This document shows positions 5,475 through 29,693 of a stretch of DNA of 29,693 bases, piece after piece. This DNA comes from a virus (lineage: Duplodnaviria > Heunggongvirae > Uroviricota > Caudoviricetes): the IMG/VR virus record IMGVR_UViG_2778261251_000001; one strand, given 5' to 3'. The position numbers were made by a program, and so were the translations under genes. The notes beneath the pieces are model-generated. The model was not told the DNA's origin. It saw nothing but the letters and a program-made list of their open reading frames with translations, and made no database searches. How positions within the stretch are numbered: position 1 is the stretch's first letter; the number at the start of each line of letters is the position of its first letter.

Positions 5475-6900
5475 TTTTTATGCGCCGCCCCATAGCATCG
5501 AGGCAGAGCAGGCGGTGATTGGTGGATTGCTTCTGGATGATGACAGCAGTGAGCGCGTCCAGAAAGTTCTGGCGATGCTGAAGCCTGATTCATTTTACAG
5601 CCGACCACACAAAATCCTTTTCGAAGAAATAACCAGAATGCACCGGGAGCAAAAGCCAGTAGATGGCCTGACGCTTTTCGATGAACTGGAGCGTAAATCG
5701 TTAACGGCGTCTGTTGGCGGTTTTGCTTATATCGCTGAGATCGCAAAGAACACGCCAAGCGCAGCAAACATCGTTGCCTATGCAATGCAGGTTCGTGAAA
5801 CCGCAATGGAACGCTACGCCATCAACCGCATGACTGAAGCGACGGAATTGCTCTATTCCCGCAACGGAATGACTGCGACGCAGAAGTACGAAGCTATTCA
5901 GGCGATTTTTACGCAACTGACAGACCATGCAAAAACCGGATCGCGTCGCGGCCTTCGCTCATTTGGTGAGGTCATGGAAGACTGGGTTAGCGACCTTGAG
6001 AAGCGATTTGACCCGTCAGGCGAACAACGAGGAATGAGCACAGGGATCCCATCGCTGGACAGGATGCTGTCACCGAAAGGTCTGGTGAAAGGCTCTCTGT
6101 TTGTCATTGGCGCTCGCCCTAAGATGGGGAAAACGACGCTATACAGCCAGATGGCAATCAACTGCGCAGTGCATGAGAAAAAGCCCGCTCTGATGTTCAG
6201 CCTTGAAATGCCCGGTGACCAGATACTGGAAAAACTGGTAGGACAGAAGTCAGGTGTTAACCCGAATATTTTTTACCTTCCGGCGACAAATGACGCTGAT
6301 GACGGCTATCAGGGTGATTACGATGGTGACTTCAACAGGGCGATCGAAACAGCCAATCGCTTGAGTGAAATCGACCTGCTTTACATCGACGACACGCCGG
6401 GATTATCTCTGGCTCAAATCGTCAGCGAAAGTCGTCGAATCAAGCGAGAAAAAGGATGTGTTGGCATGATTCTGGTCGATTACCTGACACTAATGACTGC
6501 TGAGAAGGCCGATCGCAACGACCTTGCTTACGGCATGATCACCAAAGGACTGAAGAACCTTGCCAAAGAGCTTGATTGCGTTGTTGTGCTTCTGACGCAG
6601 CTTAACCGCGCACTGGAAAGCAGAACCAATAAACGCCCATTACCAAGTGACTCACGAGATACAGGGCAGATTGAACAGGATTGCGATTATTGGGTGGGGA
6701 TCCATCGTGAAGGTGCTTTTGATGACAGTGTTCCACCTGGTGAAACCGAACTAATCCTTCGTCTCAATCGTCATGGCAATACCGGCACGGTGTATTGCAT
6801 TCAGGCAAATGGCGCTATTTATGACACAGACCAACAGTCCGCTGAAATGCGCCGCCGTGAACGCGAGGAACCGCAATCCAAGAAGAAAGGAGGATTCTGA
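5464..6900 (+). CDS. DnaB-family replicative helicase (P22 gp12-type)
   Basis: Walker A GARPKMGKTT, Walker B-like ILVDYL and the overall RecA-like layout of DnaB helicases; ATG 5464 chosen over the in-frame GTG at 5449. Confidence 0.85.
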   Translation: MTDNFYAPPHSIEAEQAVIGGLLLDDDSSERVQKVLAMLKPDSFYSRPHKILFEEITRMHREQKPVDGLTLFDELERKSLTASVGGFAYIAEIAKNTPSAANIVAYAMQVRETAMERYAINRMTEATELLYSRNGMTATQKYEAIQAIFTQLTDHAKTGSRRGLRSFGEVMEDWVSDLEKRFDPSGEQRGMSTGIPSLDRMLSPKGLVKGSLFVIGARPKMGKTTLYSQMAINCAVHEKKPALMFSLEMPGDQILEKLVGQKSGVNPNIFYLPATNDADDGYQGDYDGDFNRAIETANRLSEIDLLYIDDTPGLSLAQIVSESRRIKREKGCVGMILVDYLTLMTAEKADRNDLAYGMITKGLKNLAKELDCVVVLLTQLNRALESRTNKRPLPSDSRDTGQIEQDCDYWVGIHREGAFDDSVPPGETELILRLNRHGNTGTVYCIQANGAIYDTDQQSAEMRRREREEPQSKKKGGF

Positions 6901-6983
6901 TGACCATCTACATCACTGAGCTTGTAACAGGCCTGCTGGTAATCGCAGGCCTTTTTATTTGGGGGAGAGTAAATCGTGGCTGA
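6900..6983 (+). CDS. 27-aa hydrophobic peptide ORF
   Basis: MTIYITELVTGLLVIAGLFIWGRVNRG*; ATG overlaps the helicase stop (TGATG); one TM-like segment. Could be non-coding. Confidence 0.25.
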   Translation: MTIYITELVTGLLVIAGLFIWGRVNRG

Positions 6984-6987
6984 GTTT

Positions 6988-7182
6988 ATGCTCGTCGCAC
7001 TCAAATGCGTTGGCGTTGGATGGATTCTTCTGACGTTTTTTATTGTTCTGCATAGCTACATTCGTCTTGTGAATGACGGTAAAGACCCATGGTATACGTT
7101 GTTTGGCGCTGCATTTGTCTGGGTGATTATCGGTGTTATGCCTGTCGCTGTAGCAAAAATGGCGTGGCGTTTTGTGAGTTGA
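6988..7182 (+). CDS. small membrane protein (about 64 aa, two hydrophobic segments)
   Basis: ORF track 6976..7182 (GTG start); ATG at 6988 preferred; hydrophobic content suggests two TM helices. Confidence 0.4.
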   Translation: MLVALKCVGVGWILLTFFIVLHSYIRLVNDGKDPWYTLFGAAFVWVIIGVMPVAVAKMAWRFVS

Positions 7183-7199
7183 ACTGAGGGTAAGTATCG

Positions 7200-7514
7200 A
7201 TGGACGAATCAAGAAAGCAGTTTGAGGAATACGTTGCCAAAAAATTGAGATTACCATTCGAGATGATAACCGAGGCAAGAAATGGTGATAGGTACTTTGC
7301 ATTTTCAAGCATGGATATTCGTCACTCCTTAAATGAGTGGTGGGCTTTATGGCATGCATCGCGAGCAGCTATTGAAATAACCGCGCCAAAGTTTATCGAC
7401 AGCAGAGAAGCATTAGCCAAAGGGTTTTCTGTTGATTATTCCAATGGCTTCGGTGATGCAATGGATGCTTATGAGGAAAACATCCGCGCTGCTGGAGTCA
7501 AAGTGAAGGAGTGA
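7200..7514 (+). CDS. hypothetical protein, 104 aa, in the ren position
   Basis: Clean ORF co-oriented with early-right genes; no family recognised. Confidence 0.55.
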   Translation: MDESRKQFEEYVAKKLRLPFEMITEARNGDRYFAFSSMDIRHSLNEWWALWHASRAAIEITAPKFIDSREALAKGFSVDYSNGFGDAMDAYEENIRAAGVKVKE

Positions 7515-7516
7515 GT

Positions 7517-7681
7517 ATGAGCGCATACGAAGAAATCATGTTAGCCCTGCGATTCTTTTTCGGTGTGGAAGAAGATGAAAACGTAAATGAGATTATCGGG
7601 CAAGACCATGACCCGATAGGGACTATTGCAGCTGCACTTGACGATTACAGGAGCGTAAATGGTGAGGAAACTAACGTTTGA
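7517..7681 (+). CDS. small acidic ORF, 54 aa
   Basis: Hand-translated MSAYEEIMLALRFFFGVEEDENVNEIIGQDHDPIGTIAAALDDYRSVNGEETNV*; starts 3 nt after the previous stop with GGAGTGAGT upstream; overlaps the ninB start. Confidence 0.4.
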   Translation: MSAYEEIMLALRFFFGVEEDENVNEIIGQDHDPIGTIAAALDDYRSVNGEETNV

Positions 7682-8102
7682 ACTAAGAAGCCCCATCCAT
7701 CAGCAGAACGCCATTCAAGCTATCCAGCAAATCCTTCCAGACCCAATCAAACCAATCGTAGTAACCATTCAGGAACGCAACCGCAGCTTAGACCAAAACC
7801 GAAAGCTTTGGGCTTGCCTTGGTGACGTCTCTCGTCAGGTTGAATGGCATGGTCGCTGGCTGGATGCAGAAAGCTGGAAGTGTGTGTTTACCGCAGCATT
7901 AAAGCAGCAGGATGTTGTTCCTAACCTTGCCGGGAATGGCTTTGTGGTAATAGGCCAGTCAACCAGCAGGATGCGTGTAAACGAATTTGCGGAGCTATTA
8001 GAGCTTATACAGGCATTCGGTACAGAGCGTGGCGTTAAGTGGTCAGACGAAGCGAGACTGGCTCTGGAGTGGAAAGCGAGATGGGGAGATCGGGCTGCAT
8101 GA
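7659..8102 (+). CDS. ninB: NinB (Orf) recombination mediator
   Basis: Long runs recalled from lambda NinB (PIVVTIQERNRSLDQNRKLWACLGDVSRQVEWHGRWLDAESWKCVFTAALKQQDVVPNLAGNGFVVIGQSTSRMRV). Confidence 0.9.
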   Translation: MVRKLTFELRSPIHQQNAIQAIQQILPDPIKPIVVTIQERNRSLDQNRKLWACLGDVSRQVEWHGRWLDAESWKCVFTAALKQQDVVPNLAGNGFVVIGQSTSRMRVNEFAELLELIQAFGTERGVKWSDEARLALEWKARWGDRAA

Positions 8103-8626
8103 CTATCAAATCAAATACGCCAGCACACGACAAGGACTGCTGGCAAACGCCGCTTTGGCTTTTTGATGCACTGGATATTGAGTTTGGATTCTGGCTGGAT
8201 TCGGCAGCGAGCGACAAAAATGCTCTGTGTGCTCACTGGCTAACTGAGGCCGACGACGCGCTCAATTCTGAGTGGGTAAGCCACGGTGCAATCTGGAATA
8301 ACCCACCGTACAGCAATATCAGGCCGTGGGTGGAAAAAGCCGCTGAGCAGTGCATACAACAGCGACAGACGGTAGTGATGCTTGTGCCAGAGGATATGTC
8401 AGTCGGATGGTTCAGCAAGGCTCTGGAGAGTGTCGACGAAGTTCGCATTATCACTGATGGACGGATTAATTTTATCGAACCATCGACGGGGCTGGAGAAG
8501 AAGGGAAACAGCAAAGGCTCCATGCTGCTGATTTGGCGACCGTTCATCAGTCCTCGACGGATGTTTACTACCGTATCCAAAGCGGCATTGATAGCGATCG
8601 GGCAGGGCGTCAGGAGGGCGGCATGA
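8099..8626 (+). CDS. phage DNA N6-adenine methyltransferase (Dam-like, NPPY motif)
   Basis: [16 protein letters not shown] and NNPPYS motifs typical of the phage Dam MTase family; ATG at 8099 overlaps the ninB stop (ATGA), and its own stop overlaps the ninE start. Confidence 0.75.
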
Positions 8627-25807: not shown

Positions 25808-27079
25808 ATGGCTAGTTGGCAACAAGGAATCAACTCAGGCGGCTTTCTTGCTGGTATCGGTGGGCAAAACTCAAATGCGCCAAAGGCAAGTGATGTAAGT
25901 GAGGCGTTGGCCTATATTCGCCAGAACAACGAAATGGAGCGCTCAGGTCGCAATAACATCGGCCTTCAGGCGTTGCAGGGGCCTGGTAGTGTCGCTCAAA
26001 CATATCAAGCCGCAAAGCAACAGGAAGCGGGTGCTGCATTCCAAAAAGAATATGCGGCAGCCATCCAGTCAGGTGATCGGCAGCAGGTGCGAGATCTGAT
26101 GACCAAATATCCTGGTCAATTAGAGAAGATTCAGTCTGGTATGAAGTGGGCAGACGAAGACCAGCGCAATTCTATCGGCACCTTAGCGGCTGGCGCACGC
26201 CTTGCGTCATCGTCTCCAGAAGCAATGCAATCATGGCTGCAAAACAACGCCAAGGAACTGGCGCGCGTCGGTGTTGACCCTAACAGCGTTGCTCAGATGT
26301 ATCAGCAAAACCCTTCAGGATTTGGTGAGTTTGTTGATCACCTTGGAATGGCTGCTCTTGGTCCGATTGATTACTTCAATGTTCAGGACAAGATGGTTGG
26401 TCGCCAGCAGGATCAACAAAGAATTAACGAAACAATCCGTAATAATGACATGACAAATGCCAGAGGGTGGGCAAGCAACAATATTGCGCAACAAAATGTC
26501 AATCTTCGTCGGATGGAATTAGAGGACAAGAAATACGACAGACTCATCGCAAATGAAACTAATGCCTTAAAACTTGCTGAATTGCAGGACAAGAGATTGC
26601 AGAATCAGCAAGCTATGGAGCAGGCAAAGCGAGATAAGGCCGATGCGTACAACTCTGGAATGGATAATCTCTCCAGAACGATAGAGACGGCTACAAAAGT
26701 TCTTAATAGCCCAGGATTCACGGGATATTTCGGAACAAACCTAAACCCACTATCGAGTAGATTCATTCCAGGAACAGAGGCTGCTGATACAGAAACTCTG
26801 GTTGACACACTGAAATCTCAGGGATTCTTATCTGGCATTCAGCAGATGAAAGGGATGGGGGCTTTAAGTAATGCCGAGGGGCAAAAGGTAATGGATGCTA
26901 TTGGTAGTTTGTCCCCAAATCAGTCTGAAAAATCAGCCAGAGCAGCTATCAAAACAATCATAAAAACCACTGAGATGGCTCAGAAACGTATGCAACAGAA
27001 ATACGGGAAGGACATACAACCGTCTCAACAGCAGCTTTCTGATGATGACCTGATTAATAAATATCTCGGAGGGCAGTAA
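25808..27079 (+). CDS. ejection protein gp20-type
   Basis: 423 aa; order and size match P22 gene 20. Confidence 0.75.
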
Positions 27080-29193
27080 TGACCTATAGTCGCGAACAGT
27101 TGATGACGGCGTTAAGGAATGCTGATGCTGCCGGCGATACTGAGGGAGCACGTCGCATTGCTCAGATGCTGTCTTCTGGTGATCAATCCACTCAAAACCA
27201 ATCGCAGCCAGAAGAACAATCTCTGGTAGGAAAAGCCACTGACTGGCTCACTGGTGGTCAAAGCGCAGGGCAAATTGCAGAACAGGCTGGCCGTGGTCTG
27301 GTAAACATACCATTTGACGTATTGCAGGGTGGCGCAAGTCTGATTAATGCAATCAGCCAGGGGCTTGGTGGCCCCAAGGTTTTGGATGATGTCTATCGTC
27401 CAGTCGATCGACCGACAGACTCTTACGCACAAGCCGGTGAAACAATTGGTGGGTATCTCCTGCCAATTGGCACAGCGGCAAAAGCTGCTGGAGCGCCAGC
27501 AAAGCTCGCAGGAGACATCGGTTCCGCAGGAAACATGATTGCCGGTTCTCTTGCTGATGCTGCAAATCAGGAGGGTGATTTTGCACAAAATGCTGCCATT
27601 AACGGTGGTATCAATATTGGTGCTCAAGGCGTTCTTTCAGGTGTCGGGCGCGTTATTGCGCCAAGGGTTTCACAGGCTCTTGGTGGTGCAGCACTGAATT
27701 CTGCTAATGATGTTTCCAGGATGGCAAAGTCAGGTGCTGGGCGTCAGTCAATTGCCAGTCAGGCCGCTAATGTGTCCGAAGATGTAGCAAAAGCGGCTGA
27801 GTCTGCTGGAATTGATATAAACGCATTAACACCAGGAATGCGATCTGGAAGTCGTGGAATTGCACAAGCCGAAGGCGCATTGGCATCAACACCAGGGATT
27901 GTTCAGGATGCCCATCAGGCAGCATTTAACGAAATATCATCAAAGTTAAGTCGAAACCTTGATGAATTTGGGGCCGCATCTGGAACGGCATCAGAAAAAA
28001 GTGCGGCTATAAAACAAAGGATTCTTCAAAATCTTGATCAGATGAAGGATGCTGAGCGCGCGGCATGGGATGACGTGCGGTCAACAATGCCAAATCAAAA
28101 AGCAAGAATGCTAAATGGTAATGCCGTTATTCAGGCAGAGCGATCTGCTGGCATACCGCTTACTCCTGAAATGAAACAGTTTGTTCAGGCAAACAATCAA
28201 GGTGGAGTAACATTTGATGGCATGAAAGCATGGAGAGCGAAATTTGCTGATGCGGAGCAAAAATATAAGCGTAGCGGAGAGGCAAATGCGGCAAGGAGAG
28301 CAGGGGAAATACGTCGGGCAATTACTGATGATATGCGCACAATGGCGGAAAACGGCGGATTTTTTGATGACTGGCAAAAAGCTAATGATCTGTCTAAAGC
28401 GAGGCTATCCGCACAAGAGAGTGCAGAGTCTGTTTTTGGGCGTGATTTGGCAACAGATGCACTGATTACGAATGGAGTAAAATCTCTTCAATCATCGTCA
28501 GCTAAAGGTCTTAATGGTCCTGCTGGATTCCATTCTATGATCCGCGCGCTGCCAGAATCAGAGCGTGTTCCTGCTATATCATCAATGTTGCAGGATGCTA
28601 TCTCGCATGGTGTACGTGGTGGCAAATCTGATGCAGCAGGAATTAACCATATCGCAGAGATACTCACTCCACAAAATGTAAAAGCCATTAGCATATATTC
28701 CTCAGAACTCGGAAGAATTGCTGATGCATATGGCACTCTTGCAAGAGCAGCAGTGAAACCTCAGCAGTATATTGAAAGAACAGGGAGAACTGCCAATGTA
28801 CTACGCGATCTGGATGCCGGTTTATCCAACGTCACATCAACAGTGTTAAATGCAATTGCCAACTCAACATCAGGTGCCATTGTTGGTGGAGCAGGAGGGG
28901 GCATTGCAGGCGCTGCCGCAGGTGCTTTAGTTGGCGCCGGGTTAAAAGGTGCTGTATCTAAAATTGCCACCACGCGTAGCGGTCGATATGCGATAGAGAA
29001 AGCAGTTCAGGAAGCCACGAAAGCAGTAAGAGCTGGCGGAAGTAAAGAAGCATTAGCGGCGGCTGAACGCAGATTTATGGCAAATAAAGCCGCCGTAAAA
29101 GCAATACGCGATGCTATTGGTAGCGATGAATTCAATCGCTTGTCGAGAGCTGGTATTGTCGCCTCGTTAAGCGGTATGAATGAATATGAATAG
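27079..29193 (+). CDS. ejection protein gp16-type
   Basis: 704 aa; large Ala/Gly-rich internal protein; last gene of the P22-type 26-14-7-20-16 block. Confidence 0.75.
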
Positions 29194-29195
29194 CT

Positions 29196-29693
29196 TTATC
29201 TAATGTTGCTGCTACTGTTGCATGTGACGGTATTCCCAAATCCTGAATTGCAGTTTGTATATGTGTCAACGCGTGTTGGGTAAGGTTGAGTTATAACAGG
29301 CTGGCGCGCTTTTTGCTCGATCGCTTGCATTGTGTTTACAGCCTGATAATTCAATAAAGCCTGCTGGAATGCTTGGCTTTGTGCTATTTGTTGGGCTTGT
29401 TCTTGGCTTTGTAATTGAACATAAAGATTCTGAAGCTCAAGTCTTGCCTGTGCGTCACTTATCTTGCCTTGATCGACACCTTGCCCGAGCATCTTCGCAG
29501 CAAGGACATACAGCTTAGGTGTTGGTGCTGATGCCATGCGTGAGTCGTTCTTCACGCTGGCATCAAGGCAATTAGCCATATCACTAAGCTTTGGATAGCG
29601 TTGCTCGCAACTTGCTTGGTAGTCACTTACTTTTGCGCATCCAGCCAGCAGAAGCGGGATAATTAATAGTGATTTTTTTATAAAGTTATTTAT
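29196..29693 (-). CDS. lipoprotein, N-terminus truncated by the window end; function unknown
   Basis: Minus-strand reading frame stays open to the window edge (...INNFIKKSLLIIPLLLAGCAKVSDYQ... upstream of the track ORF 29196..29579); lipobox LLAGC; Gln-rich helical mature region; stop at 29196-29198. Confidence 0.6.
   Translation of the reverse strand: MNNFIKKSLLIIPLLLAGCAKVSDYQASCEQRYPKLSDMANCLDASVKNDSRMASAPTPKLYVLAAKMLGQGVDQGKISDAQARLELQNLYVQLQSQEQAQQIAQSQAFQQALLNYQAVNTMQAIEQKARQPVITQPYPTRVDTYTNCNSGFGNTVTCNSSSNIR

What the first reader, a model, noticed from the sequence alone, without database searches (positions are those of the whole stretch)
29196..29693. Truncated minus-strand lipoprotein gene after the ejection-protein block
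Opposite in orientation to the whole virion module, the frame reads ...KKSLLIIPLLLAGC (lipobox) followed by a Gln-rich helical region, and stays open to the window edge. In P22-like phages the segment between gene 16 and the tailspike carries immunity and exclusion cargo, and phage lipoproteins such as Cor and Llp block receptors against superinfection. This is a plausible lysogenic-conversion or superinfection-exclusion lipoprotein, but its start and upstream context are not visible.
Basis: partly seen in the sequence, partly recalled or inferred. Interest (0 to 1): 0.6.

Follow-up and report, generated by a model that had tools for sequence, protein, structure and literature searches.

The report
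Prophage lipoprotein gene, start codon lost
This is a complete copy of a conserved but uncharacterised lipoprotein gene that P22-like prophages carry where phage P22 has its exclusion gene sieA, but in this copy the ATG start codon has mutated to ATA, so it is probably silent.

Summary
The minus-strand frame, the lipobox (LLAGC) and the Gln-rich helix are real. The gene is not cut by the window edge. Homologues in E. coli prophages and in phages Gally, 720R6, VSe13 and Brookers are 158-161 codons long. They start at an ATG that corresponds to window 29681-29679. Here that codon is ATA.

Three public assemblies identical to the window tail extend it rightward. They carry the same ATA, an in-frame TAA 13 codons upstream, and no ATG/GTG/TTG in between. 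The allele is rare: 0 of 20 complete E. coli genomes and 1 of 11 IMG/VR contigs with the same flanks.

The family (PHROG 6067, function unknown) is under strong purifying selection (dN/dS 0.03-0.07). In every locus with readable flanks it lies between the gene-16 homologue and the tailspike of P22-like (pro)phages. That is the sieA slot, usually downstream of mnt. It shows no homology to SieA, Cor, Llp or Bor, and no structural match.

Superinfection exclusion is plausible from position only. Intact copies are good candidates for testing; this copy is most likely a fresh pseudogene.

The parts
29196..29681 (-). Complete coding region (161 codons plus TAA stop) of a PHROG 6067 lipoprotein-family gene. 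The homologous start codon is at 29681-29679.
   Evidence: Translation. Alignment to annotated 161-aa CDSs in L001-L006. phrog_6067 match 1-161/161, E 9.8e-110. dN/dS 0.03-0.07.
29679..29681 (-). ATA where all compared homologues have the ATG start codon. Plus-strand base 29679 is T instead of C.
   Evidence: Alignment A1. The same ATA is present in L007, L008 and L009, which are 100% identical to the window tail. It is absent from 20 complete E. coli genomes with the same flanks and from 10 of 11 IMG/VR contigs.
29682..29693 (-). Last 12 nt of the 25-nt leader between the upstream orf104 and the lipoprotein gene. It is open in frame but holds no start codon.
   Evidence: In the extension the frame closes at a TAA 13 codons upstream of the ATA, with no ATG/GTG/TTG between.
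29637..29681 (-). Signal peptide with lipobox (residues 1-15: (M)KKSLLIIPLLLAGC). Cys15 is the lipidated residue. The +2 residue is Ala, so there is no Asp inner-membrane retention signal.
   Evidence: PROSITE-type lipobox pattern met in 40/40 close and 92/103 distant relatives, never with Asp at +2. It is the only hydrophobic segment of the protein.
29382..29636 (-). Conserved membrane-proximal helical domain (residues 16-100) with invariant Cys25 and Cys38.
   Evidence: AlphaFold model mfbb86c44b295: 10-residue block means of 85-98 across precursor residues 15-104. Invariant columns in A2. Lowest column entropy in the protein.
29307..29456 (-). Long Gln-rich helix (residues 76-125). There is no clear heptad register.
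   Evidence: helix. (33% Gln in residues 83-128; heptad scan flat).
29208..29261 (-). C-terminal beta-hairpin (residues 141-158; predicted strands 140-146 and 152-158), bracketed by the nearly invariant Cys144 and invariant Cys154 with a conserved G-N turn. The tail module (residues 129-161) is exchanged independently of the N domain.
   Evidence: low-confidence strands, pLDDT about 55. P0025 is 90-91% identical in residues 16-128 but 18% in 129-161, and the reverse pattern is seen in P0018, P0020 and P0023.
29196..29579 (-). Residual 127-codon ORF from the first canonical in-frame ATG (Met35). It lacks the signal peptide and lipobox. Gene callers call this ORF in the ATA-allele assemblies.
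   Evidence: ORF list. (this exact 127-aa product is on record on two Logan contigs).
27079..29193 (+). Convergent neighbour: the gp16-type DNA ejection protein gene, last gene of the gp7/gp20/gp16 block. Its stop lies 2 nt from the lipoprotein stop.
   Evidence: 98-99% identical to RefSeq 'DNA transfer protein / P22-gp16 family'. gp7 (PF25688) and gp20 (PF16928) lie upstream.

Best explanation
The feature is a full-length copy of a conserved 161-codon lipoprotein gene (PHROG 6067) that P22-like (Lederbergvirus) prophages of Enterobacterales carry as cargo in the 'ant moron'. It sits directly after, and convergent with, gene 16. This is the slot that holds sieA in P22.

For intact copies, the following is inferred, not shown. 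The gene is transcribed in the lysogen from the mnt promoter (operon mnt-orf104-lipoprotein). [quoted passage not shown] A compact helical domain sits against the membrane. A roughly 50-residue helix and a Pro/Gln/Thr linker hold out a small disulfide-stapled hairpin in the periplasm. The most likely role is an envelope-level lysogenic-conversion or superinfection-exclusion function. The conserved head would bind a host envelope component and the exchangeable hairpin would set specificity.

For this window, the following is shown. The start codon is ATA instead of ATG and there is no alternative canonical start upstream. The signal-peptide-bearing protein can therefore be made at about 1% of normal at best. 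This copy is most likely a recently inactivated gene whose coding sequence is otherwise still intact.
For: Identity and completeness.

Start-codon defect:
- Alignment A1 shows ATA against ATG in five homologues.
- Three independent assemblies, 100% identical to the window over 1.8-3.8 kb, carry the same ATA.
- In them, and in L004, the frame closes at a TAA 13 codons upstream with no ATG/GTG/TTG between.
- Gene callers fall back on Met35.
- AUA initiates at 1-2% of AUG (0.02-3% in other constructs) in E. coli (bioRxiv 10.1101/063800).
- The allele is rare: none of 20 complete E. coli genomes and 1 of 11 IMG/VR contigs with identical flanks.
- Other decayed alleles exist.

The family is real and functional: dN/dS 0.03-0.07; 97 clusters across Enterobacterales; invariant Cys15/25/38/154 and nearly invariant Cys144.

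Topology: lipobox in 40/40, no Asp at +2; no other hydrophobic segment.

Structure: (pLDDT 80.7; N domain mostly above 90).

Position:
- The gene lies between the gp16 homologue and the tailspike in E. coli, Salmonella, Tatumella, Providencia, Proteus and a MAG.
- This is the same slot, strand and size as P22 sieA.
- No sieA is present in any of these loci.

Operon: the mnt stop overlaps the orf104 start; a 25-nt gap precedes the lipoprotein gene; the only promoter-like sites are the divergent pair upstream of mnt; no terminator-like site lies between mnt and the lipoprotein gene. In phage Brookers the gene follows mnt directly.

Modular tail.
Against: - No experiment or homology ties the family to exclusion. 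There is no Pfam, NCBIfam or PADLOC model and no PDB or BFVD structural relative.
- Distant relatives (23-32% identity) are chromosomal lipoproteins in non-phage contexts, next to glmU/dapD or uvrC/EarP. The fold may therefore have a housekeeping envelope role.
- Nearly identical copies sit beside gp16 types that are 22-99% identical to each other, so there is no sign of co-variation with the ejection proteins.
- Prophage expression is inferred from gene order. The promoter scan is not above chance (3 sites found, 3.5 expected).
- The coding sequence carries no second lesion, so residual AUA-initiated expression cannot be excluded.
- The rightward context comes from identical public contigs, not from the window itself.
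Confidence: 0.6

Rival explanations
1. The ATA allele is still functional. Low-level AUA-initiated translation, possibly helped by coupling to orf104, which ends 25 nt upstream, gives enough lipoprotein. The mutation would then be a down-tuning and not a knockout.
For: AUA does initiate at about 1-2% of AUG. The coding sequence has no other lesion and differs from intact alleles by a single amino-acid residue apart from the start codon. The allele persists in at least three assemblies.
Against: The Shine-Dalgarno-like AAGGA lies 16 nt from the start, which is too far. This leaves little to compensate for a weak codon. The allele is rare. The three assemblies may come from one lineage. Lack of a second lesion is expected for a recent mutation.
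Confidence: 0.15
2. The family is not an anti-phage factor. It would instead be a host-fitness or virulence moron of the Bor/Iss type, or an envelope-homeostasis lipoprotein that the phage borrowed from the chromosome.
For: Distant relatives are chromosomal and sit next to cell-envelope precursor genes: glmU, dapD, dapE or uvrC/pgsA. There is no co-variation with the neighbouring gp16 type. Prophage-expressed outer-membrane lipoproteins with non-phage roles are known (lambda Bor; established knowledge).
Against: There is no homology to Bor/Iss (no Pfam hit). Confinement to the sieA slot across genera and the independently exchanged C-terminal tail fit an arms-race partner better than a housekeeping one.
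Confidence: 0.25
3. The ATA is a sequencing or assembly error next to the A-run (ATG AAAAAA to ATA AAAAAA), and the gene is in fact intact.
For: The changed base adjoins a homopolymer, lengthening the A run from 6 to 7.
Against: It is a substitution, not a length change. It recurs in an IMG isolate-derived viral contig and in two separately assembled SRA runs, all otherwise 100% identical to the window.
Confidence: 0.04
4. One reading: the gene continues beyond the window edge and starts further upstream.
For: The frame is open to the last base of the window.
Against: Contigs identical to the window show an in-frame TAA 13 codons upstream and no start codon between. All homologues start at the position of 29681. 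The upstream gene, orf104, is in another frame.
Confidence: 0.02

Closest known systems
P22 SieA (superinfection exclusion protein A; Leavitt et al. 2024, PMC10883804)
   Same: Same genomic slot, strand and size: directly after and convergent with gene 16, 164 versus 161 codons. Both are envelope proteins encoded in the ant moron. SieA is expressed from the prophage. No locus with the lipoprotein also has sieA.
   Different: No sequence relationship (hhalign probability 0.12%). SieA is a polytopic inner-membrane protein that blocks DNA passage across the inner membrane. This protein has only a cleavable lipoprotein signal peptide and a hydrophilic body, so it would act from the outer membrane or periplasm.
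T5 Llp and phi80/N15 Cor (outer-membrane lipoproteins that inactivate FhuA)
   Same: Phage-encoded lipoproteins predicted to sit in the inner leaflet of the outer membrane. Llp is described this way in bioRxiv 10.64898/2026.03.26.714494 (listed).
   Different: No homology. Matches to phrog_1119 (Cor, E 0.078) and to PDB 8a60_B (Llp, E 0.52) cover only the signal peptide. This protein is about twice as long, with a helical head, a long helix and a terminal hairpin. No receptor is known.
Lambda Bor / Iss
   Same: Small outer-membrane lipoprotein encoded by a prophage moron and expressed in the lysogen (established knowledge; cited in PMC7067206).
   Different: No Pfam Lambda_Bor hit. Different size and predicted fold. 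No serum-resistance data exist for this family.
PHROG 6067 members (Escherichia phage Gally GALLYPH_13, vB_EcoP-720R6 URC09766, Salmonella phage VSe13 vse13_014, Proteus phage Brookers gp14 'putative lipoprotein'; RefSeq WP_001580104.1 and WP_000749286.1)
   Same: True homologues: 55-99% identity over the full length in the same position.
   Different: They have an ATG start; this copy has ATA. All are annotated only as hypothetical protein or lipoprotein, and none has been characterised. A literature search by accession found nothing.
TP-J34 Ltp (Streptococcus phage exclusion lipoprotein)
   Same: Prophage lipoprotein that blocks DNA injection by binding an ejected phage protein (cited in PMC10883804). 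It is a mechanistic precedent for a lipoprotein aimed at the injection apparatus.
   Different: Gram-positive host, surface-exposed, unrelated sequence. No test was run here beyond the absence of any PDB sequence match.

Membership tests
Bacterial lipoprotein (Lgt/LspA/Lnt substrate) | N-terminal signal peptide with a positive n-region, a hydrophobic h-region and a lipobox [LVI][ASTVI][GAS]C, with the Cys within about the first 35 residues | tested here: met
   KK at residues 2-3, SLLIIPLLL, then L-A-G-C15. The PROSITE-type pattern matches here and in 40/40 close homologues. This is the only hydrophobic stretch. SignalP and LipoP were not available.
Bacterial lipoprotein (Lgt/LspA/Lnt substrate) | A usable start codon in front of the signal peptide, so that the precursor is made | tested here: not met
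   ATA replaces ATG at 29681-29679. No ATG/GTG/TTG lies between it and the upstream in-frame TAA.
Outer-membrane (Lol-sorted) lipoprotein | No Asp at position +2 after the lipidated Cys (the E. coli inner-membrane retention rule) | tested here: met
   The +2 residue is Ala here. It is A, V or T in 40/40 close relatives and is never Asp in 92 distant relatives that have a lipobox. Localisation itself was not tested.
PHROG 6067 (phage protein family, function unknown) | Full-length, significant match to the family profile | tested here: met
   E 9.8e-110, residues 1-161 on profile positions 1-161/161.
SieA family (types A-C) | Sequence homology to P22 SieA and a polytopic inner-membrane topology | tested here: not met
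   hhalign probability 0.12%, E 0.49. No transmembrane segment beyond the signal peptide.
SieA family (types A-C) | Location between the gene 16 and gene 9 homologues of a P22-like prophage | tested here: met
   The feature is positional only and does not by itself confer membership.
Cor / Llp receptor-blocking lipoproteins | Homology of the mature domain to Cor (phrog_1119) or Llp (PDB 8A60 chain B) | tested here: not met
   The only alignments are residues 1-29 (Cor, E 0.078) and 1-30 (Llp, E 0.52), which is the signal peptide.
Cor / Llp receptor-blocking lipoproteins | Blocks adsorption or DNA entry of phages that use a defined outer-membrane receptor | not testable with these tools
   This needs plating and adsorption assays with an intact allele.
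Spanin outer-membrane subunit (Rz1-like) | Small Pro-rich lipoprotein encoded in or next to the i-spanin gene of the lysis cassette, on the late strand | tested here: not met
   The gene is antisense to the late operon and far from the candidate lysis-cassette ORFs at about 12.2-13.5 kb (function assigned from position and size only). The phrog_11621 match (E 0.058) covers residues 5-36 only.
Known anti-phage defence systems (PADLOC-DB) | Match to any defence-system protein model | tested here: not met
   0 families at E up to 1.

The most novel reading that the evidence does not exclude
Intact members of this family would be a new, non-homologous replacement for SieA. On this reading, it is an outer-membrane-anchored periplasmic lipoprotein, made from the prophage mnt operon, that stops superinfecting P22-like phages. 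It would do so by interfering with the trans-envelope conduit built by gp7/gp20/gp16 (or with an outer-membrane co-receptor) from the outer-membrane side. The independently exchanged C-terminal disulfide hairpin would be the specificity determinant. The secreted orf104 protein might act as a partner.
Probability: 0.25. Interest if true: 0.6.

Novelty: new member of a known kind. Interest (0 to 1): 0.3.

Why it matters
The segment between gene 16 and the tailspike of P22-like phages is a recognised hot spot of prophage cargo. Only the P22 version (sieA, mnt/arc/ant) has been studied there. This lipoprotein family fills the sieA slot in about 3.5% of complete E. coli genomes (190 of 5426), including the O104:H4 outbreak lineage, and in several other enterobacterial genera. 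It is under strong purifying selection and has no known fold relative.

If it turns out to be an exclusion factor, it would show a second, outer-membrane-side way to block podovirus genome delivery. It would also be relevant to phage-therapy host range. For this particular window the practical point is narrower. The copy has lost its start codon, so it should be annotated as a probable pseudogene. It should not be annotated as a truncated gene, nor as the 127-aa cytoplasmic ORF that gene callers report.

Tried and rejected
- Pfam, NCBIfam and PADLOC scans of the protein and of 51 family members found nothing meaningful. The NCBIfam GspK match (19 bits against a cut-off of 130) comes from the Gln-rich helix and was rejected. 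This is presumably why one Cronobacter entry is misnamed 'GspK'.
- PDB sequence search with the family profile gave only E 0.19 and 0.52.
- A heptad scan of the long helix found no convincing coiled-coil register, so an Lpp-like trimer was not pursued.
- The search for related loci with the broad alignment failed for lack of conserved stretches. With the close alignment it returned only 5 loci.
- Literature searches by accession number, and for lipoproteins in the ant moron, found no study of this family.
- An Rfam scan of the extended region found nothing.
- A terminator scan found no convincing terminator for the lipoprotein transcript inside gene 16.
- The ideas that this is a spanin, a virion protein or a SieA homologue were rejected (see the membership tests).

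Full report
**1. The observation**

The minus strand from 29693 down to 29196 translates without a stop as INNFIKKSLLIIPLLLAGCAKVSDYQASCEQ…TVTCNSSSNIR*. The other two minus-strand frames are full of stops. The stop codon (29198-29196) lies two nucleotides from the stop of the 704-codon plus-strand gene 27079-29193.

That gene is the gp16-type member of a P22-style ejection block. Upstream of it are gp7 (PF25688), gp20 (PF16928), DUF2824 and a needle with an Sf6-type knob.

**2. The gene is not truncated, and its start codon is mutated**

Megablast finds the same gene in three Lederbergvirus phages: Gally, vB_EcoP-720R6 and VSe13. It also finds it in 190 of 5426 complete E. coli genomes. In all annotated copies the CDS is 486 bp (161 codons). 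Gally's CDS is annotated 30 bp longer, but the reading frame in that extension is closed. The CDS begins at an ATG that aligns with window 29681-29679. In the window this codon is ATA (alignment A1).

The 127-aa product of the first canonical in-frame ATG (Met35, 29579) is on record on two Logan contigs, from SRR10970594 and SRR10990793. An exact-pattern scan of IMG/VR found one further contig with the ATA, UViG_2778261223_000025. All three are 100% identical to the window, over 2303, 1771 and 3799 bases respectively, and run beyond its right end.

In these contigs the lipoprotein frame closes at a TAA 13 codons upstream of the ATA. The intervening codons (CTT CTG ATA AAT AAT AGA AAG GAT TTT ATA AAT AAC TTT) contain no ATG, GTG or TTG. 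The Shine-Dalgarno-like AAGGA is 16 nt from the start. AUA initiates at about 1-2% of AUG in E. coli, and at 0.02-3% in other constructs (Hecht et al., bioRxiv 10.1101/063800).

The ATA allele is rare. Among complete E. coli genomes with the same 60-nt flank, all 20 differ from the window by at least one base. The 15 rows listed show exactly one mismatch, and the three of these that were aligned base by base (EC17GD31, PK8217, C227-11) carry ATG at the start position. In IMG/VR, 10 contigs have ATG and 1 has ATA.

Other decayed alleles of the gene are also in the databases. These are frameshifts, fusions, and a 98-aa call from Met64. The coding sequence here has no other defect and differs from intact alleles by a single residue apart from the start codon. 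The simplest reading is a recent start-codon loss.

**3. The family**

The protein matches PHROG 6067 (unknown function) end to end, with E 1e-109. It has no Pfam, NCBIfam or PADLOC family.

A search of 5.8 billion proteins returned 97 clusters. Every source-named entry comes from Enterobacterales, and nearly all are named 'hypothetical protein'. The genera are Escherichia, Citrobacter, Serratia, Cronobacter, Klebsiella, Pectobacterium, Yersinia, Tatumella, Morganella, Providencia and Xenorhabdus.

dN/dS between the window and relatives is 0.03-0.07, at dS up to 0.57. The frame therefore encodes a protein under strong constraint. Cys15 (the lipobox Cys), Cys25, Cys38 and Cys154 are invariant in the close family, and Cys144 is nearly invariant across the wider family. 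This suggests two periplasmic disulfides. All 40 close homologues have a lipobox, and none has Asp at +2. The signal peptide is the only hydrophobic segment. By the standard E. coli sorting rule this predicts an outer-membrane, inner-leaflet lipoprotein. That localisation is an inference.

**4. Structure**

With a 104-sequence alignment, AlphaFold gives a mean pLDDT of 80.7, with most of the first 100 mature residues above 90. In precursor numbering the model shows:
- a compact bundle of helices at 18-28, 32-45 and 53-70;
- a helix at 76-125;
- a low-confidence Pro/Gln/Thr-rich linker;
- a hairpin at 140-146 and 152-158 that carries Cys144 and Cys154.

The C-terminal tail (residues 129-161) comes in at least two types and is exchanged independently of the rest. 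Serratia fonticola P0025 is 90-91% identical in residues 16-128 but 18% identical in the tail. P0018, P0020 and P0023 are 70-75% identical in the head but 91-94% identical in the tail.

**5. Context**

In every locus with enough flank, the gene lies between the gp16 homologue (convergent) and the tailspike. This holds for E. coli prophages, IMG/VR contigs, phages Gally, 720R6, VSe13 and Brookers, Tatumella, Providencia and an Enterobacteriaceae MAG.

This segment is the 'ant moron' of Villafane et al. 2008. They describe it as being in rapid flux, with only the P22 version studied (PMC2629481). In P22 the same slot, strand and size are taken by sieA, at 164 codons and 22 bp from gene 16. SieA is an inner-membrane protein that blocks DNA transfer across the inner membrane. 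Escape mutations map to gp16 and gp20, and only 22 of 66 sequenced P22-like phages carry it (PMC10883804).

The lipoprotein family is not homologous to SieA (hhalign probability 0.12%). None of the lipoprotein loci contains sieA.

In the window's lineage the gene order is mnt-like Arc repressor, then orf104, then the lipoprotein gene, all on the minus strand. orf104 is a 104-aa protein with a Sec-type signal peptide (phrog_19844). The mnt stop overlaps the orf104 start, and 25 nt separate orf104 from the lipoprotein gene. The only promoter-like hexamers in the region are the divergent pair upstream of mnt, where P22 has Pmnt and Pant. No terminator-like site lies between mnt and the lipoprotein gene.

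In Proteus phage Brookers the gene follows mnt directly. In Gally, 720R6 and VSe13 it stands alone, with a better ribosome-binding site. Expression from the prophage is thus likely but inferred.

Nearly identical lipoprotein genes sit next to gp16 proteins that range from 22% to 99% identity to the window's gp16. The module therefore moves independently of the ejection genes.

**6. Wider relatives**

A profile search of 1.84 billion cluster representatives found 248 clusters. Most are 125-140-aa lipoproteins that share the N domain and the C…G…C tail. Where context could be read, these are chromosomal and not phage-borne. Two sit next to DUF3108-glmU and dapD/dapE. One lies between a Zn-peptidase and EarP, near uvrC and pgsA. 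The phage family therefore looks like a captured branch of a broader proteobacterial envelope lipoprotein family, which is itself uncharacterised.

**7. Interpretation**

Shown:
- a complete, conserved, lipobox-bearing gene of PHROG 6067 in the sieA slot of a P22-like prophage;
- a start codon that is ATA, with no alternative start;
- a family under purifying selection with a modular tail.

Inferred:
- lysogen expression from Pmnt;
- outer-membrane, inner-leaflet location;
- two disulfides.

Hypothesis (about 0.25-0.35): an exclusion or conversion function acting on incoming phages in the periplasm, with the tail setting specificity.

Rivals are a Bor-like fitness role, residual function of the ATA allele, and sequencing error; these are weighed above. 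For the copy in this window the best-supported statement is that it is a probable fresh pseudogene of an uncharacterised prophage lipoprotein. The finding is real and correctly placed.

Noticed in passing
L009 3813-4127 (minus strand), just beyond the window's right edge; identical in L007 and L008: orf104 is a 104-aa protein with a Sec-type signal peptide (MKRIAILLILFFSTIVFA|KP) and Cys residues at positions 43 and 87. It matches phrog_19844 (unknown function) and has no Pfam family. Its ATG overlaps the mnt stop, and it ends 25 nt before the lipoprotein start. It is a possible periplasmic partner of the lipoprotein. It co-occurs with it in the E. coli prophages examined but is absent in Gally, 720R6, VSe13 and Brookers.
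   Followed up: partly
L009 7853-10219 (continuation of the window's prophage): After the tailspike (5723-7852) there is only a 98-aa GtrA fragment (7920-8216, minus strand, PF04138). A host D-Ala-D-Ala carboxypeptidase gene follows from 9047 (Peptidase_S11 plus PBP5_C). No gtrB or gtrC is visible, so the O-antigen conversion operon at the prophage end looks deleted.
   Followed up: partly
window 29208-29294 (residues 129-161) compared with P0018-P0064: The C-terminal tail of the lipoprotein family comes in at least two types: …YTNCNSGFGNTVTCNSSSNIR and …TTNCTTYGNQTRCQSY. These types recombine independently of the conserved N domain.
   Followed up: yes
Proteins P0070, P0075, P0083, P0087, P0021, P0096: Several other damaged alleles of the same gene exist in public data. 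They include frameshifts, fusions to unrelated sequence (one to an Erf-type recombinase) and a 98-aa call from internal Met64 with 12 member sequences. Decay of this cargo gene is recurrent.
   Followed up: partly
L031, L032, L033 (metagenome contigs with distant relatives): Relatives at 23-32% identity are chromosomal lipoproteins. Two independent contigs share the order dapE-dapD-DUF3108-glmU-lipoprotein. This points to an uncharacterised proteobacterial envelope lipoprotein family from which the phage branch derives.
   Followed up: partly
window 27079-29193 compared with L004-L006, L010, L018: The mnt-orf104-lipoprotein block is 97-100% identical between prophages whose adjacent gp16 proteins are only about 35% identical or not detectably related. 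This shows a sharp mosaic boundary at the 2-nt gap between the convergent stop codons.
   Followed up: partly
window 28880-28950 (gp16 residues about 600-625): The gp16 homologue carries a Gly/Ala-rich hydrophobic stretch near its C terminus ([24 protein letters not shown]). The protein as a whole has no Pfam family.
   Followed up: no
L001 6621-7040 (phage Gally, also 720R6): In the Gally-type context the lipoprotein gene diverges from a 139-aa gene (phrog_6823, 'Uncharacterized protein 15'). That gene's N terminus also resembles a lipoprotein signal peptide, and it has a weak sub-threshold PEGA-domain match. It may be a second envelope cargo gene in the same moron.
   Followed up: no
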